A stretch of DNA of 64,000 nucleotides from Nitrospinota bacterium (GCA_016217735.1 JACRGQ010000065.1:1077-65076); one strand, 5' to 3'. Counted from the first letter of the stretch, positions 1 to 63,227 are shown. Notes: generated by a model from the letters alone, not told the origin. Translations and numbers: made by a program.

Positions 1-52
1 CGCCCCGCGGGTAGTGCATCAGTTTGAGATTGCCGCGGCCATCTTCGATGGC

Positions 53-100
53 CTCGCAATGACAAATTGCTGTCATTGCGAGCGTTAGCGAAGCAATCTC
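53..100. repeat. Palindromic intergenic element (CTCGCAATGACA-N6-TGTCATTGCGAG), a variant of the GTCATYCTGAG family
   Basis: Perfect 12-bp inverted repeat at 53-64 / 71-82, followed by an AGCGAAGCAATC tail. The core differs by 2 nt from the TGTCATTCTGAG core at 13334, 31297, 41293 and 46547. Confidence 0.6.
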
Positions 101-157
101 GTGCTCCATTCAAACATTAATTTCAAACTGAACCACTACCGCCCCGCGCACGGGGTA

Positions 158-13333: not shown

Positions 13334-13403
13334 GTCATTCTGAGGAGCGAAGCGACGAAGAATCTCTTTCCGGAAAGGGATTCTTCGCTATGCTCAGAAT
13401 GAC
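13334..13403. repeat. GTCATYCTGAG-family palindromic intergenic element (single hairpin unit)
   Basis: GTCATTCTGAGGAGCGAAGCGACGAAGAATCTCTTTCCGGAAAGGGATTCTTCGCTATGCTCAGAATGAC. The arms pair end to end. Confidence 0.8.
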
Positions 13404-13439
13404 AAGAGTGGCGGATTAGTAAGCGAAAGAAGGGGAAGA

Positions 13440-32612: not shown

Positions 32613-32690
32613 CGCCGAATACCCGCACAATCAGCGGCAGGTGCGAATTCATTCGCACATTGGCGCGGACGCGCCAACCCGCTTGTGCTC

Positions 32691-32756
32691 CGCGCAAGTG
32701 TACAGGCTAAAGTTCGTACCCGCCTGAAGAAACATTTTCAAAGCTCTTTTTATCCC
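32691..32756. repeat. Copy of a mosaic-repeat module (CGCGCAAGTGTACAG..CGTACCC.CCT.AAGAAACATTTTC) also present at ~59527-59585
   Basis: By-eye alignment of 32691-32745 with 59527-59580. Preceded by two short GC hairpins (GTGCGAAT/ATTCGCAC and GGCGCG/CGCGCC). Confidence 0.55.
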
Positions 32757-37751: not shown

Positions 37752-37821
37752 GCCTTACGATTCTACCCCGGATTATTCATAGGTGGCACGGCCAATCCTG
37801 CCGTGCGCGGCGGGGGGCGTT

Positions 37822-37912
37822 GGTACCACAGGTTTTAACCTGTGGCTGCCGCGCAAGCGGCAGAAACGCCACGGCCTGAAAGGCCGCGCAACAGGTTGAA
37901 ACCTGTTGTACC
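37822..37912 (+). repeat. GGTACC-bounded multi-hairpin element, copy 1 (candidate structured RNA or MITE)
   Basis: GGTAC...GTACC closing helix; CCACAGGT-TTTA-ACCTGTGG; CTGCCGC-GCAA-GCGGCAG; CAACAGGT-TGAA-ACCTGTTG. Confidence 0.75.
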
Positions 37913-37931
37913 AATTCCAATGCGGGATGCG

Positions 37932-41292: not shown

Positions 41293-41394
41293 GTCATTCT
41301 GAGGAGTGAAGTTTTGTCATTCTGAGCCGCAGACGAAGAACCCCTTTCCGGGGAAAGAAGGGAAAGTGATCCTTCGCCTTTGGCTCAGGATGAC
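41293..41394 (-). repeat. GTCATYCTGAG-family composite element, inverted copy of 31297-31397
   Basis: The reverse complement aligns with 31297-31397 with about 8 differences in ~101 nt (by eye). Confidence 0.8.
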
Positions 41395-41402
41395 AACGCG
41401 GG

Positions 41403-46546: not shown

Positions 46547-46612
46547 GTCATCCTGAGCCGTGGGCGAAGGATCTCATTCCGGAAAGAGATTCTTCGCTAC
46601 GCTCAGAATGAC
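46547..46612. repeat. GTCATYCTGAG-family palindromic element (single unit)
   Basis: GTCATCCTGAGCCGTGGGCGAAGGATCTCATTCCGGAAAGAGATTCTTCGCTACGCTCAGAATGAC. Confidence 0.8.
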
Positions 46613-49784: not shown

Positions 49785-49860
49785 TTCCCTTGATTTCAAA
49801 TAATGCCTTATATCCATCCCGGTATGGTTTTCACCCATTGGGCGATTTGGCGTGCGGTTT

Positions 49861-49954
49861 GGTACCGCAGGTTTTAACCTGCGGTTGCCCCGAAGGGGCA
49901 AGCCTTCCGTGCTTGACGCTATCGCGTCAACAACAGGTTGAAACCTGTTGTACC
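49861..49954 (+). repeat. GGTACC-bounded multi-hairpin element, copy 2
   Basis: CCGCAGGT-TTTA-ACCTGCGG (compensatory relative to copy 1); TTGCCCC-GAA-GGGGCAA; TTGACGC-TATC-GCGTCAA; CAACAGGT-TGAA-ACCTGTTG. Confidence 0.75.
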
Positions 49955-49992
49955 GATTTTTCCGGCCACTCCATGTTTTACGGCTGCGCGAT

Positions 49993-59232: not shown

Positions 59233-59242
59233 CCCGCTTCTT

Positions 59243-59669
59243 GTCATCCCCGCGAAGGCGGGGACCCAGAAATATTTTCAAAGCTTTCTTTGTCGGCCCA
59301 TCGGGCCGATATGCTTCGGCAGGGTAGACAATCAGGGAGCGGCGGAATAAACATGCGGCGGCGGAGCATCGCGGAAGGAGGAGCGGAATATGTTCTCCCC
59401 CGCTCCGGAAATCCTCGAAAGAGGGCGCCAGACGCAAACAAACCGCCGCGGAAATGGCCTGTAGGCGATTGTCTGCCGTTGCCCTCCGGCGCCAAGCATC
59501 GCGGCATTCCTTCCGGGGGATGGCTTGCGCTTCGCGCAAGTGTACAGAAGTCCGTACCCACCTAAAGAAACATTTTCCCCGGTGGGTACATGCTCTCGGC
59601 ATGTACATCGGCCCATCGGGCTGACCTTTGCGGGAGCGGGTCTTGCGCGGAGGGGCCGGGTGATGCACG
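59243..59669. repeat. Mosaic intergenic repeat block upstream of the carbonic anhydrase gene
   Basis: Modules: GTCATCCCCGCGAAGGCGGGGACCCAGAAA (59243-59272), TGTCGGCCCATCGGGCCGAT (59291-59310), CGCGCAAGTGTACAG..AAGAAACATTTTC (~59527-59585), GGTGGGTACA, TGTACATCGGCCCATCGGGCTGAC (59602-59625). All recur at 60312-60612 and/or 32691-32756. Confidence 0.65.
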
Positions 59670-60311: not shown

Positions 60312-60612
60312 TGTATCTTTCTTTCTCTAGGTGGGTACACAATTCATTGTGTACATCGGCCCATCGGGCCGACCCTCTTCGTCCCTTCCGGCTCCTCCCT
60401 TTAACAAAGGGCGGAGCCGGAAGGGATTTTAAAATAATTCCCCCTCCCATGTCATGCCGGGCTTGACCCGGCACCCAGAAAGAGTATCAAAGCTCTCTTA
60501 CCTTCTTCGGTGGGTACACAATGCGGGAGGCGCGGAATCATTTTACAATCCGCGCCGGATGTGGCCTAAAGACCATATTGTGTACATCGGCCTCACGGGC
60601 CGACCTCTTCTT
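60312..60612. repeat. Mosaic intergenic repeat block downstream of the carbonic anhydrase gene
   Basis: GGTGGGTACAC (60331, 60511), TGTGTACATCGGCCCATCGGGCCGAC (60348-60373), GTCATGCCGGGCTTGACCCGGCACCCAGAAA (60451-60481), TGTGTACATCGGCCTCACGGGCCGAC (60579-60604). Same orientation as the upstream block. Confidence 0.65.
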
Positions 60613-60703
60613 GGTGCCACAGGTTTCAACCTGTGGCTGTTTCCGGAGGAAACAAAAGCCCTTGGCTCTGACGGCCCAACAACAGGATAAATCCTGTTGT
60701 ACC
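60613..60703 (+). repeat. GGTACC-bounded multi-hairpin element, copy 3
   Basis: GGTGC...GTACC (needs G-U); CCACAGGT-TTCA-ACCTGTGG; TGTTTCC-GGA-GGAAACA; CAACAGGA-TAAA-TCCTGTTG (compensatory relative to copies 1 and 2). Confidence 0.75.
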
Positions 60704-60746
60704 AAGGCAGGATGCAGAGGTGCCTCGCCGTCTGATTCCCCGTTAC

Positions 60747-63227
60747 TTATCCACCGGGCTGAGGCTCTTGAGCGCTGGGCGAAGTCTTGCTGTTTCTTAG
60801 TTTGTCGTATGCTTCGATGAAAGCTTTTATCACTTCGTCCGTGAGCCATTCTATGCGGCGGTTAACCGCTTTGTAAACCTCATCAAGCTCAAAAGATTTG
60901 TCGAACTCTTCGATTCTGTTTCCAAAGGTGGTGTCCGTAATGTCTTTAAGCAATAACTTGGCGTCATCAAGTTGGGTTAGATTCCTGACAACATGCTCAG
61001 TTACCTCCTTTCTGTGTTTTCCTTCACTTGTCCAGCATTCGTGCGCCCAGAAATATAGCAGGGAAGGTGCGTTTTGTTTGTATGTGAACAAGTTGGGTTC
61101 TTTCTTAAGGCGTTCTATTACAGCTTCGACCATTGTATTGAAATTGTATTTAGCTACTTTGCTGTACCCTTGTTCTCGGTAGTACTTAATTGTTCGGACA
61201 AGGAAGAAAGCCTGCAATAAGCCCTCCTGTTGAATTAATCCCATAATTTTTTTCTCTCTAGTTTTCGTGTCATCAGTATTTAAAAATTGCAGATATATAG
61301 GCATGATCCCGGATTCATATTTTGAATCCCGAATAGGTTCATTTTTGCCGCAAAATAGGTCATCCTGATTTTTAAGGAATACACCGATCATTGCCTCTAG
61401 CATTGAGTCGTCAAAGGAATCCCTATGGATGCTAATATTGCGGAGAAGATCATCCAGTTTGCCCTCGTTGTTAGCCTTAACGCATGCTGCTTGGAAATAA
61501 TTCCCCTTGTCTGTGCTGTTCACTAATCCCCGAATAAATAATTGGAAATCCTTATCGCTTAAGGTCTTTGGTGGTATTACGTAGGTGAAATATTTATCGA
61601 AACAATCCGGATGGTGGATTCTTCGCTCTCTCCTGGCTTCTTCTGCGTTATAGGGGCTTGGAACCTTTATTCTGGCAGAGTTCGGAAAGAGATGGTCTAT
61701 GAGTGCTAATAAATCCTTTGATTTGGCTGGGTCGGCGATTTTCCCGATAATCATATCAGTCACTTCGGCGGCGCGCTTTTCTTGATTTTTCTTTTTCTCA
61801 TCTTCCTGAGAAAAGATTAGGAGTAGCCGTTCGCCAAGTGATCGCTGGTTGAGAAACACCTCCTTATTGTCAAAGATTATTCTGATTGTTTCCGGGGAAA
61901 TGCTTGCTATGTATTCCAAGTAAAGATAGTCGTCATGGTTTACTTCGGTTTTGATTAAAGCAAATTTCGAGAAAAGTGCATTGCAGAATCTTTTCACATG
62001 GCGGATATTTCTAAAAAATGCGGAGAGGTCGTTAGCCGCAACAATTGCACTTTCGTCAACCTCATGTTTCCTTAGGAATGAAATTATTCTCGCTTTGGCA
62101 TATTTGGAAATTGCATGCTCAGGAATGACAGGCAGAGGCAATTGGAGATTTACAAATTTCTCAAAGTATTCATTGTCTTTGGAAAGTACTTGTTTGACGG
62201 CAACATCATCAAAAGCCAACAGGAAAATAACATTGCGCAGGTCGGCATTATTGCGCACTAGCTTAAGAACCATCATGATTTCTTTGGCGTCAAGTCTGTC
62301 GATATCATCGATAATGACAATTATTCTGTGATCCATCCTTGCTAAGAGATTAGGAAGTTCCTGTCTTACCTGTTCGGCGGTGTTGGCCACGCTGGCCCAT
62401 TCGCCAATAAATTGCTTCAAGTCCATTAGTGATAGTTTTGAGGAAAGCAAAAACCGGTAAATTTTCAGATCGGAGATTAACGTGGGGAAATAGAGCTTCT
62501 GGCCAATCCCTTTTATTAGCGAATCAAAAAAGGCGCGATGTAGGGCATCCTCATCCTTATATAGCCAAGGACTATAATCGACAACAATTGTCCTTTTTGT
62601 ACATTCAAGTTTTTTCCTCACCAGGTTAACAACTGATGTTTTGCCGTCACCCCATTCGCCTGATATGCCAAAGACAAACGAACCCTTGGTGTCAACGGAG
62701 GTAATGCTGTCACAAAGCGATTTTACAAAGACACCTCGTTCCAGTTCATCTTCTCCCTCCTCTGTTATTGCATTGTCGGGCATAAGTGCCGCGGTATCCA
62801 AGTTGGATTGACTGGCGATGAGGCGTTGCACCTGTGAAGCATAAACGGTAAAGCAAATAATGATGATGTAGTTAATTGCGGGTGTGCCAATAAGATTTAG
62901 CCGGTCAAAGATAACAAAAAATGCAATCAGGACAAGATGGTCGATTAGTAAAAGGGGTGGGAGTCTAATAAGCGAGGTCTCCCAATACTTTTTTGCCGAA
63001 ATCCATAGGTGTGCGGCAAAAAAAATAAATATTGATGACACGATAATCTTAATTGAGGGGAGATGTGGAAAGGGAGGTTGGTCCACAAAATCGACGATGG
63101 CCCAATATAGGGCAAAGTCCCACTTACGGTCCAGGACGATAAGCGCAAGGATAAATGCGGGCAGGTATCTTCTTATATGAAGATAAAAGTCTTCAGCAAG
63201 CGCAGATAACCACTTCGGACATTTCAA
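60747..63227 (-). CDS. KAP-family P-loop NTPase with an N-terminal ~4-TM membrane module
   Basis: Walker A GISGEWGDGKTSVVN and Walker B IIVIIDDIDRLD are typical of the KAP family. N-terminal hydrophobic helices (AFILALIVL, IIVSSIFIFFAAHLWI, LVLIAFFVIF, INYIIIICFTVYA). Hand-counted 60-nt lines give 33-38% G+C, against 72% for one counted line in rho. Confidence 0.8.
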   Translation of the reverse strand: MKCPKWLSALAEDFYLHIRRYLPAFILALIVLDRKWDFALYWAIVDFVDQPPFPHLPSIKIIVSSIFIFFAAHLWISAKKYWETSLIRLPPLLLIDHLVLIAFFVIFDRLNLIGTPAINYIIIICFTVYASQVQRLIASQSNLDTAALMPDNAITEEGEDELERGVFVKSLCDSITSVDTKGSFVFGISGEWGDGKTSVVNLVRKKLECTKRTIVVDYSPWLYKDEDALHRAFFDSLIKGIGQKLYFPTLISDLKIYRFLLSSKLSLMDLKQFIGEWASVANTAEQVRQELPNLLARMDHRIIVIIDDIDRLDAKEIMMVLKLVRNNADLRNVIFLLAFDDVAVKQVLSKDNEYFEKFVNLQLPLPVIPEHAISKYAKARIISFLRKHEVDESAIVAANDLSAFFRNIRHVKRFCNALFSKFALIKTEVNHDDYLYLEYIASISPETIRIIFDNKEVFLNQRSLGERLLLIFSQEDEKKKNQEKRAAEVTDMIIGKIADPAKSKDLLALIDHLFPNSARIKVPSPYNAEEARRERRIHHPDCFDKYFTYVIPPKTLSDKDFQLFIRGLVNSTDKGNYFQAACVKANNEGKLDDLLRNISIHRDSFDDSMLEAMIGVFLKNQDDLFCGKNEPIRDSKYESGIMPIYLQFLNTDDTKTREKKIMGLIQQEGLLQAFFLVRTIKYYREQGYSKVAKYNFNTMVEAVIERLKKEPNLFTYKQNAPSLLYFWAHECWTSEGKHRKEVTEHVVRNLTQLDDAKLLLKDITDTTFGNRIEEFDKSFELDEVYKAVNRRIEWLTDEVIKAFIEAYDKLRNSKTSPSAQEPQPGG

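What the first reader, a model, noticed from the sequence alone, without database searches (positions are those of the whole stretch)
37822..37912. About 92-nt GGTACC-bounded multi-hairpin element, three same-strand copies with compensatory base changes
Copies lie at 37822-37912, 49861-49954 and 60613-60703, all intergenic and in the same orientation. They share a 5-bp closing helix (GGTAC/GTACC), a 5' hairpin, one or two variable central hairpins and a 3' hairpin.
- 5' hairpin: CCACAGGT/ACCTGTGG in copies 1 and 3 becomes CCGCAGGT/ACCTGCGG in copy 2 (A>G paired with T>C).
- 3' hairpin: CAACAGGT/ACCTGTTG becomes CAACAGGA/TCCTGTTG in copy 3 (T>A paired with A>T).
- Central stem: the sequence is completely different in each copy yet always forms a 7-bp hairpin (CTGCCGC/GCGGCAG, TTGCCCC/GGGGCAA, TGTTTCC/GGAAACA).
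- Closing helix: copy 3 has GGTGC/GTACC, which is tolerable only as a G-U pair in a plus-strand RNA.
This pattern argues for selection on structure (an sRNA, an RNA-protein site or a cruciform target) rather than a passively decaying MITE. The ends are also ~20/24 inverted repeats of each other, so a MITE origin remains possible.
Basis: seen in the sequence. Interest (0 to 1): 0.65.

Follow-up and report, generated by a model that had tools for sequence, protein, structure and literature searches.

The report
REP-like palindromic repeat dimers, Nitrospinales
The three 91-94-base elements are real copies of a lineage-specific family of intergenic palindromic DNA repeats: two inverted hairpin units with GGTAC ends, most like the REP/BIME/REPIN repeats of other bacteria. 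They are a new family of a known kind, not a new RNA gene.

Summary
Three same-strand copies lie at the stated coordinates, with every stem and compensatory change as described. There is also a weak, degenerate fourth candidate at 32635-32722.

About 30 more copies occur in three related uncultured groundwater 'Nitrospinales' MAGs and one metagenome contig. With these, each element resolves into a head-to-head dimer of two ~45-nt units. Each unit is 5'-TTGGTAC, then a conserved 8-bp hairpin, then a variable hairpin with a GNA/GNNA loop.

- **Local hairpins are what is conserved.** H1/H4 are 333/336 Watson-Crick locally, against 243/336 for end-to-end pairing. Covariation beats all 500 shuffles.
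- **Nothing favours one RNA strand.** H1 and H4 show no G-U intermediates, loop polarity follows each unit's own strand, and both strands fold about equally. There is no shared promoter or terminator and no Rfam match.
- **Family behaviour fits REP/BIME/REPIN repeats.** I saw C-C dimers, a tandem array, truncated units, orientation flips between strains, no target-site duplication, and location after stop codons.
- **No mobilising enzyme was found.** About 310 kb of sampled sequence contains no RAYT-like transposase, and the tag is GTAC rather than GTAG.
- **Orientation is biased.** The A-type unit faces the upstream stop codon in 13 of 15 sites, which is unexplained.

Verdict: a new family of a known kind, of moderate interest.

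The parts
37820..37914 (+). Copy 1, full element. Closing TTGGTA 37820-37825 and TACCAA 37909-37914. H1 37826-37845 (C-type unit hairpin A). H2 37846-37863 (CTGCCGC-GCAA-GCGGCAG). Spacer 37864-37869. H3 37870-37888 (CACGGCC-TGAAA-GGCCGCG). H4 37889-37908 (A-type unit hairpin A). Lies 20 nt after the stop of the phosphoribosyltransferase (pyrE-like) gene on the - strand.
49859..49956 (+). Copy 2, full element. Closing 49859-49864 and 49951-49956. H1 49865-49884 (CCGCAGGT variant). H2 49885-49901. Spacer 49902-49912. H3 49913-49930. H4 49931-49950. Lies between a 2-thiouracil desulfurase-family gene (stop 49784) and a rhomboid gene (start 49993), both on the + strand.
60611..60705 (+). Copy 3, full element. 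Closing TTGGTG 60611-60616 (one G-T pair) and 60700-60705. H1 60617-60636. H2 60637-60655. Spacer 60656-60661. H3 60662-60679. H4 60680-60699 (CAGGAT/ATCCTG variant). Lies between convergent genes: carbonic anhydrase (+) and a KAP-family NTPase (-).
49821..49858 (+). Upstream extension module next to the C-type end of copy 2 (TTTTCACCCATTGGGCGATTTGGCGTGCGGTT). Shared with a subset of family members (L012, L010, L006, L031a, L036). Function unknown.
32635..32722 (.). Weak, degenerate four-hairpin candidate relative without GGTAC ends, after the ychF-like gene. The orthologous spacer in MAG nzgw267 (L012 6203-6300) holds different sequence.

Best explanation
**What it is.** The elements belong to a lineage-specific family of REP-type (repetitive extragenic palindrome) DNA repeats in uncultured groundwater Nitrospinales.

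- The basic unit is about 45 nt: a 5' tag (TT)GGTAC, a conserved 8-bp hairpin with a TTYA loop, and a second 7-8-bp hairpin. The second hairpin's stem varies between subfamilies, and its loop is usually GNA or GNNA.
- Two units in inverted orientation, tags outside, make the 91-94-nt element. One unit is C-type (GGTACC[A/G]CAGG) and one is A-type (GGTACAACAGG). In REP nomenclature this is a head-to-head heterodimer with a structured spacer, that is, a REPIN- or BIME-like element.

**Shown here.** The architecture, the local-hairpin covariation, the subfamily mosaic, arrays, truncations and orientation flips, the intergenic location after stop codons, the absence of TSDs, and the restriction to one lineage.

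**Inferred mechanism.**
- The units fold as hairpins in single-stranded DNA, each on its own strand.
- A hairpin-plus-tag-recognising enzyme supplied in trans copies or rearranges them. By analogy this would be a RAYT-like HUH/Y1 transposase.
- Exchange between copies spreads already-symmetric stem variants. This would explain why stems change on both sides at once.
- When read through from the upstream gene, the four stable hairpins probably also act as a 3' barrier that stabilises or attenuates the mRNA. That could account for the orientation bias relative to genes.
For: **Family and distribution**
- A genome-wide pattern scan finds the family only in MAGs 'Nitrospinales bacterium' nzgw267 and nzgw266 and 'bacterium' WY2.bin26, plus one JGI metagenome contig.
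- The window is 80-92% identical to nzgw267 contigs.

**Unit and dimer anatomy**
- A parse of 27 elements shows the unit-dimer layout.
- The hairpin module CTGCCGC-GCAA-GCGGCAG sits beside a C-type hairpin on the left of copy 1. It appears, inverted, on the right of L014, which is a C-C dimer. The unit is therefore the module.
- L019 is also a C-C dimer. L017 has a tandem array. L022, L023 and L025 are truncated or solo units. L002 carries an insertion in its H1 loop.

**Local rather than long-range pairing**
- H1/H4 are 333/336 Watson-Crick locally, against 243/336 for H1:H4 pairing. H2/H3 are 259/294 locally, against 157/294.
- Covariation: 0/500 shuffles reach the observed score, and slid controls collapse.

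**DNA-level signs**
- H1 and H4 have no one-sided intermediates.
- G..A loops occur in 15/21 H2 hairpins on one strand. In H3 they occur in 10/21 on the opposite strand, but in only 1/21 on the same strand as H2.
- There is no TSD.

**Genomic context typical of REPs**
- 15 elements lie between co-directional genes, 3 between convergent and 3 between divergent genes.
- Most elements lie 2-70 nt after a stop codon.

**Turnover at fixed sites**
- L018 and L031b are 98% identical while their flanks are 86% identical.
- L021 and L028 occupy the same site and differ by four compensated double changes.
- L019 is full-length where L022 is truncated.
- A related strain carries an oppositely oriented element at the copy-2 site.
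- The copy-1 site is replaced by 136 or 211 nt in related strains.

**Literature**
- REP HH/TT dimers, heterodimers, spacers with stem-loops, clusters, and REP classes without a transposase are described in PMC3733652.
- Compensatory changes and tandem clusters in REPINs are described in PMC3116915.
Against: - **No transposase found.** There is no RAYT or Y1 (HUH) transposase in the window plus all fetched family loci, about 310 kb. This rests on phmmer with E. coli RayT and an HUH/Tyr motif scan. No recurrent transposase-like gene lies near the elements. The MAGs are incomplete, so this is inconclusive, but the mobilising enzyme is pure inference.
- **Different tag.** The tag is GTAC, not the GTAG (or CGTC) that defines the described REP superfamilies.
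- **No clean mobility evidence.** I found no empty-site/filled-site pair, and no identical copies at unrelated sites. The best non-duplicate identity is about 92% and the median is 75%. Recent transposition is therefore not shown.
- **Unexplained orientation bias.** The A-unit faces the upstream stop codon in 13 of 15 sites, about p 0.007 by my own two-sided binomial. A purely DNA-level selfish repeat does not predict this.
- **Different conserved fold.** The conserved fold is a four-hairpin cloverleaf, not the single long hairpin of a canonical REPIN.
Confidence: 0.6

Rival explanations
1. **Structured RNA element.** The four-hairpin fold is selected at the RNA level. It would act either as a cis-acting 3'-UTR module (a barrier to 3' exonucleases, an RNase or protein-binding site, or an attenuator) or as a small RNA. 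The DNA symmetry would then be a by-product.
For: - Strong covariation in all five helices.
- Most elements lie 2-70 nt after stop codons of co-directional genes.
- Orientation relative to the upstream gene is biased 13:2, while orientation shows no link to local GC skew (11:9).
- One orthologous copy is 98% conserved against 86% flanks.
- The outer closing pairs show U-G rather than C-A.
Against: - Two of the three window copies differ in sense relative to their genes.
- There are no G-U intermediates in H1 or H4 and no G-T/A-C asymmetry within the hairpins.
- The GNA/GNNA loops of the two inner hairpins lie on opposite strands.
- There is no shared promoter or terminator and no Rfam family.
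- A related strain has the element flipped at the same site.
- Divergent-gene contexts, arrays and half-elements exist.
- No RNA data could be found.
Confidence: 0.15
2. **Classical MITE.** The element is a deletion derivative of a DDE-type insertion sequence with ~24-bp terminal inverted repeats, moved by that IS's transposase.
For: - The ends are 22/24 inverted repeats.
- The family is multi-copy, intergenic and lineage-restricted.
- GTACC at both ends could formally be read as a duplicated palindromic target.
Against: - There is no TSD outside the ends.
- No IS or transposase with these ends occurs in about 310 kb.
- The 'TIRs' are themselves perfect hairpins. They vary independently of each other while keeping their own pairing.
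- The centre differs between copies, where MITE copies normally share it.
- Half-units, C-C dimers and alternating arrays are REP/BIME behaviour, not MITE behaviour.
Confidence: 0.05
3. **Host protein-binding DNA sites.** The elements would be dyad-symmetric double-stranded or cruciform sites for a host protein, such as gyrase, a nucleoid protein or a recombinase. Integron attC-like or Xer-like recombination sites are included here.
For: - Each hairpin is a perfect dyad.
- E. coli BIMEs bind gyrase and IHF (cited in PMC3733652).
- Conserved ends with a variable, structure-conserving centre and a position at gene 3' ends superficially recall attC sites.
Against: - A dimer-binding site that tolerates either base would not need the two half-sites to change together, yet they always do.
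- The flanking genes are housekeeping genes (pyrE-like, rhomboid, carbonic anhydrase, ychF), not cassettes.
- I saw no RYYYAAC/GTTRRRY core sites by eye.
- No integrase was noticed near the elements, but I did not search for one specifically.
Confidence: 0.08

Closest known systems
REP dimers / BIMEs (GTAG- and CGTC-tagged REP superfamilies; Di Nocera et al. 2013, PMC3733652)
   Same: - Short palindromic units with a conserved tag at one end.
- Multi-copy and extragenic, mostly between co-directional or convergent genes and after coding regions.
- Mostly head-to-head dimers with tags outside; heterodimers are preferred.
- Spacers of 20-100 bp that can carry their own small stem-loops (A. tumefaciens CGTC-3).
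- Clusters and arrays occur, families are lineage-specific, and one REP class has no known transposase.
   Different: - The tag is (G)GTAC, not GTAG or CGTC.
- Every unit carries a second, variable hairpin with a GNA/GNNA loop, so the dimer is a regular four-hairpin cloverleaf.
- The host is an uncultured Nitrospinales lineage.
- Orientation relative to the upstream gene is biased 13:2.
REPINs and their RAYT transposases (Bertels and Rainey 2011, PMC3116915)
   Same: - An inverted REP doublet acts as the unit.
- The spacer is less conserved than the ends.
- Compensatory changes keep the pairing.
- Tandem clusters occur, there is no TSD, and remnants exist as singlets.
   Different: - A canonical REPIN is conserved as one long hairpin in which the two REPs pair with each other. 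Here the local hairpins are conserved and end-to-end pairing is degraded (243/336 against 333/336).
- No RAYT was found in the sampled sequence.
- No dominant master sequence or identical copies were seen.
IS200/IS605-family ends and other HUH-processed hairpins
   Same: - A hairpin plus a short adjacent tag, read on one DNA strand.
- No TSD.
- Strand and orientation effects are known for this family.
   Different: No tnpA or tnpB gene is present, and the elements are far shorter than an IS. This is an analogy of mechanism only.

Membership tests
REP / BIME (repetitive extragenic palindromes) | A short (20-40 nt) palindromic unit able to form a stem-loop | tested here: met
   Hairpin A has an 8-bp stem and a 4-nt loop. 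It is 97-99% paired across 27 copies.
REP / BIME (repetitive extragenic palindromes) | Many copies per genome, almost all extragenic, mostly between co-directional or convergent genes | tested here: met
   The window has 3 copies plus 1 weak candidate in 64 kb. The incomplete MAG nzgw267 has at least 20. All are intergenic: 15 co-directional, 3 convergent and 3 divergent.
REP / BIME (repetitive extragenic palindromes) | A conserved GTAG (or CGTC) tetranucleotide tag at one end of the unit | tested here: not met
   An invariant tag exists, but it is GGTAC (GTAC). GG, T and C are invariant in 27 copies, and the A is G in one copy. The elements therefore belong to neither described superfamily.
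REP / BIME (repetitive extragenic palindromes) | Units associate as inverted dimers (HH or TT), heterodimers and clusters | tested here: met
   There are 28 head-to-head dimers, mostly C-A heterodimers, 2 C-C dimers, and an alternating array in L017.
REPIN-RAYT system | A single-copy RAYT (Y1/HUH transposase, Pfam PF01797) gene flanked by the same REP units | tested here: inconclusive
   None was found in the window plus every locus holding an exact unit match in three MAGs, about 310 kb. The rest of these incomplete genomes could not be searched.
REPIN-RAYT system | The doublet is conserved as one long hairpin, with the two REPs pairing with each other | tested here: not met
   Long-range H1:H4 pairing is 243/336 against 333/336 local. 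H2:H3 pairing is 157/294 against 259/294 local.
REPIN-RAYT system | Evidence of excision or insertion (population polymorphism, empty sites) | tested here: inconclusive
   Related strains differ at the copy-1 and copy-2 sites: the segment is replaced, or the element is in the opposite orientation. Only assembled contigs were available and no clean empty site was seen.
MITE of a DDE transposon | Target-site duplication flanking terminal inverted repeats | tested here: not met
   The flanks of 28 copies show no direct repeats.
MITE of a DDE transposon | An autonomous partner with the same ends | tested here: inconclusive
   None was found in the sampled loci. Whole genomes were not searchable.
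Rfam RNA families | A match at or above a family's gathering score | tested here: not met
   There are 0 matches in the window. Only chance-level hits to miRNA hairpins appear at E up to 10.
Independent sRNA gene | Own promoter and terminator, and a transcript with defined ends from one strand | tested here: inconclusive
   The three copies share no promoter-like or terminator-like sites. No RNA run holds the region.

The most novel reading that the evidence does not exclude
These may not be RAYT-driven REPs at all. They could be a new class of tagged, four-hairpin modules with a GTAC tag and a GNA/GNNA mini-hairpin in every unit.

Under this reading they would be handled by an unknown hairpin-recognising enzyme, or kept by the host as oriented 3'-end RNA or DNA signals. 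That would explain the 13:2 orientation bias relative to the upstream gene.

A second ~55-nt mini-insertion that lands exactly in palindrome centres would point to an uncharacterised hairpin-targeting mobility system in Nitrospinales. It is seen in the H1 loop of the L002 element and in the loop of a neighbouring repeat at window 60524-60578.
Probability: 0.15. Interest if true: 0.6.

Novelty: new member of a known kind. Interest (0 to 1): 0.35.

Why it matters
- **Annotation.** A recurrent, strongly folding 'structured RNA candidate' in these groundwater genomes is explained as a REP/BIME-type DNA repeat. This prevents a false sRNA or riboswitch annotation.
- **Interpretation of covariation.** Covariation in a palindromic DNA repeat does not by itself show selection on an RNA.
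- **Range of REP families.** Tagged palindromic repeat families now extend to an uncultured Nitrospinales lineage with a different tag (GTAC) and a regular two-hairpin unit. If a cognate HUH transposase is found, tag-enzyme co-variation can be studied. If none exists, this joins the CGTC class as REPs without a known mobiliser.
- **Testable follow-ups.** The orientation bias and the palindrome-centre mini-insertion can both be tested experimentally.

Tried and rejected
- **Rfam.** The gathering-threshold scan found nothing. A permissive scan gave only chance miRNA-like hits.
- **RAYT/Y1 transposase.** phmmer with E. coli RayT (fetched) against all six-frame ORFs of the window and loci gave nothing below E 0.75. 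An HUH plus catalytic-Tyr motif scan found nothing.
- **Recurrent neighbouring genes.** All-against-all clustering of called genes gave only response regulators, orthologues and one duplicated TPR/esterase-like gene family, with no transposase.
- **Insertions behind the truncated copies L023 and L025.** Ordinary genes lie there, with no IS.
- **Target-site duplications.** None.
- **Empty-site comparisons.** Window against L009, and L018 against L031. The intergenic regions are too diverged, or differ by larger composite segments, so no clean boundaries emerged.
- **Strand assignment by G-T against A-C mismatches.** The first count on 27 copies suggested asymmetry. It disappeared in the 21-copy non-redundant set, so I rejected it as evidence.
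- **Replication-direction bias.** All three window copies lie on the G-rich strand. Across loci, however, orientation against local GC skew is 11:9, so I rejected this.
- **RNA evidence.** No RNA run holds the region.
- **Metagenome scan.** It added only one true member, L036. The other hits (L001, L011, L016, L024, L029, L035) are chance matches in unrelated sequence, most of them apparently coding.
- **Integron attC reading.** Rejected, because the neighbouring genes are housekeeping genes and I saw no attC core motifs by eye.
- **tRNA-like reading.** The stems are too long for a tRNA, so ARAGORN was not run.

Full report
**1. The observation**

Reading the three stretches confirms every sequence detail in the finding. 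The two end patterns match only these three elements in 64 kb, against 0.00 expected from shuffles. The two ends of copies 1 and 2 are 22/24 inverted repeats of each other. Each copy folds far better than shuffled sequence on both strands (z -5.1 to -8.6).

The minimum-energy fold alternates between two forms. One is a four-hairpin cloverleaf. The other is a single long hairpin in which the two ends pair with each other. Choosing between them needed more copies.

All three copies are intergenic:
- Copy 1 lies 20 nt after the stop of a phosphoribosyltransferase (pyrE-like) gene on the minus strand.
- Copy 2 lies between a 2-thiouracil-desulfurase-family gene and a rhomboid gene on the plus strand.
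- Copy 3 lies between convergent carbonic anhydrase and KAP-NTPase genes.

**2. The family**

A degenerate end pattern was scanned over 185,579 species genomes. It hit 33 stretches, 28 of them in three MAGs: 'Nitrospinales bacterium' nzgw267 and nzgw266, and 'bacterium' WY2.bin26. The remaining five were single matches in unrelated taxa, apparently in coding sequence, and count as chance.

A JGI metagenome scan added one true member, L036. The window itself is 80-92% identical to nzgw267 contigs, so it comes from a related species. It is held by groundwater metagenome runs. The family is therefore real, multi-copy and lineage-restricted.

**3. Anatomy**

Twenty-eight dimers were extracted and parsed. 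Every element reads, in order:
- TTGGTA
- H1 (20 nt)
- H2 (17-20 nt)
- a 3-16-nt spacer
- H3 (18-19 nt)
- H4 (20 nt)
- TACCAA

H1 and the reverse complement of H4 are the same hairpin. They differ at one stem pair: C-G in the 'C-type' and A-T in the 'A-type'. H2 and H3 are both of the form TTG-stem-loop-stem-CAA or CGC...GCG. The element is therefore an inverted dimer of a ~45-nt unit made of a GGTAC tag, hairpin A and hairpin B.

The unit, not the 91-nt element, is the module:
- The block 'C-type hairpin + CTGCCGC-GCAA-GCGGCAG' forms the left half of window copy 1. The same block, inverted, forms the right half of L014, which is a C-C dimer. L019 is also a C-C dimer.
- L017 carries an alternating array.
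- L022, L023 and L025 are truncated to one unit or cut inside H4. L002 has a 55-nt insertion exactly in its H1 loop.

**4. Which structure is conserved**

On 21 non-redundant elements:

| Pairing | Local | Long-range |
|---|---|---|
| H1 and H4 | 333/336 Watson-Crick | 243/336 (H1:H4) |
| H2 and H3 | 259/294 | 157/294 (H2:H3) |

H1 and H4 take the variants CAGGTT, CAGGAT, CAGAAT and CAGATT independently of each other. Each always has the matching 3' half. The local hairpins are therefore the conserved structure, and the REPIN-style long hairpin is not.

Formal counts agree:
- 10 MAFFT-aligned sequences: 96.5% of cells paired, 15 pairs with changes on both sides, 0/500 shuffles as high, and slid controls at 32-49%.
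- 27 sequences, outer helices only: 97.1% paired, 0/500.

**5. RNA or DNA?**

Six observations weigh against one selected RNA strand.
- H1 and H4 show no one-sided (G-U) change. Every change in these two hairpins is a double one, including U-A to A-U swaps that have no wobble intermediate.
- G-T and A-C mismatches inside the hairpins show no strand asymmetry once duplicates and orthologues are removed. The apparent bias did not survive.
- Hairpin-B loops are G..A (GNA or GNNA) in 15/21 H2 hairpins on the C-first strand. In H3 they are G..A in 10/21 on the opposite strand, but in only 1/21 on the C-first strand. Each unit keeps its polarity on its own strand, so no single transcript carries both.
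- Both strands fold about equally well.
- The copies share no promoter-like or terminator-like sites, and there is no Rfam match.
- Published REPINs also show common compensatory changes (PMC3116915). Covariation therefore does not separate 'RNA' from 'mobile palindromic DNA'.

No RNA-seq run holds the region, so transcription could not be checked.

**6. Context and dynamics**

Of the 21 elements with both neighbours called, 15 lie between co-directional genes, 3 between convergent and 3 between divergent genes. This is the REP pattern described in PMC3733652. No target-site duplication flanks any copy.

Orthologous sites show turnover:
- L018 and L031b are 98% identical inside flanks that are 86% identical.
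- L021 and L028 sit at the same site but differ by four compensated double changes.
- L019 is full-length where L022 keeps one unit.
- In related strains of the same groundwater, the copy-1 segment is replaced by 136 or 211 other letters.
- In one of those strains, the copy-2 site begins with GGTACAAC, that is, an element in the opposite orientation.

Non-duplicate copies within a genome are at most about 92% identical, with a median of 75%. The family is therefore diversified, with no sign of a recent burst.

**7. An unexpected bias**

At sites where an upstream gene can be assigned, the A-type unit faces its stop codon in 13 cases and the C-type unit in 2. My own two-sided binomial gives about 0.007. 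Dropping the two cases with a distant gene gives 11:2, about 0.02.

Orientation does not follow local GC skew (11:9), although all three window copies lie on the G-rich strand. The bias is therefore tied to transcription direction, not visibly to replication.

This is the best argument for some RNA-level or transcription-coupled effect, and I keep it as such.

**8. The missing enzyme**

The window and all family loci together cover about 310 kb, including every exact unit match in three MAGs. They contain no RAYT or Y1 transposase:
- phmmer with E. coli RayT gave a best E of 0.75.
- No HUH motif was found.
- No recurrent transposase-like gene was found.

The mobilising step in my explanation is an inference by analogy.

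**9. Comparison with known families**

The closest description is the REP dimer of Di Nocera et al. (PMC3733652). Shared features are:
- tagged palindromic units;
- head-to-head heterodimers and clusters;
- spacers that may carry their own stem-loops;
- a position after coding regions;
- lineage-specific families, with one superfamily (CGTC) lacking a transposase.

This family fails the tag criterion (GTAC, not GTAG or CGTC). It also fails the REPIN long-hairpin criterion, and the RAYT criterion is untested. I therefore file it as a new family of the REP/BIME kind. It is not a member of a described superfamily, and it is not a proven REPIN-RAYT system.

**10. Verdict**

- The elements are best explained as REP-type inverted dimers (confidence about 0.6).
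- Novelty: a new member of a known kind.
- Interest is moderate (0.35). It rests on the different tag, the regular two-hairpin unit, the orientation bias, the absence so far of a transposase, and a separate mini-insertion that targets palindrome centres.

Noticed in passing
window 60330-60381 and 60508-60603; also L002 2466-2493, L015 122-216, L026 7889-7983: A second structured repeat, 'family B': GGTGGGTACACAAT-loop-ATTGTGTAC, then a GGCC hairpin, then GACCTCTTC. It also carries GTAC motifs. One copy sits directly upstream of copy 3.
   Followed up: partly
window 60524-60578; L002 2288-2342; partial copies at L006 4039-4082, L020 3762-3795, L030 1010-1029: A ~55-nt sequence with an internal CGCGGAAT...ATCCGCG hairpin is inserted exactly at the centre of a palindrome in two unrelated hosts. 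One is the loop of the second family-B copy in the window; the other is the H1 loop of the L002 element. It looks like a mini-insertion that targets hairpin loops.
   Followed up: partly
window 1-142; L002 205-308 and 2173-2271; L007 1-62; L008 709-826; L025 7849-7981; L026 7407-7541: A ~130-nt repeat containing palindromes around GTCATTGCGAG, shared at 81-94% identity between the window and several MAG loci.
   Followed up: no
window 13335-13412, 41334-41396, 46564-46612; L006 1192-1249; L014 589-642; L022 774-834: Palindromic repeats of the type GTCATTCTGAG...GAATC...GATTC...CTCAGAATGAC. This is another small repeat family.
   Followed up: no
window 59238-59294 and 60450-60482; L025 6058-6112; L030 1743-1799; L020 3730-3762: Short repeats of the form TGTCAT, a GC-rich hairpin, then CCAGAAA.
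   Followed up: no
window 37786-37808; L012 6253-6275: The hairpin GGCACGGC-AATCCT-GCCGTGC sits just left of copy 1. It recurs in another intergenic region of MAG nzgw267.
   Followed up: no
window 60747-63227 (-): An 826-aa KAP-family P-loop NTPase gene lies in a stretch of low GC (0.47, against about 0.6 elsewhere) with atypical codon usage. It is likely a horizontally acquired island next to copy 3.
   Followed up: partly
window 49785-49990, seen through run X3 contigs: A related strain has different sequence in the copy-2 intergenic region. It begins ...TTCCGGTACAACGGGT right after the gene stop, that is, an element in the opposite orientation. A CACCCATTTGGCG-like motif lies before the rhomboid gene.
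   Followed up: partly
L009 2242-3045: Tandem ~165-nt repeats (78-82% identical) lie inside a long ORF next to the L009 element.
   Followed up: no
L020 5432-5811 and 6954-7333: A 380-nt segmental duplication (92% identical) covers the 5' part of a TPR-protein gene. The truncated copy ends about 80 nt before the L020 element, so the element lies at a duplication boundary.
   Followed up: partly
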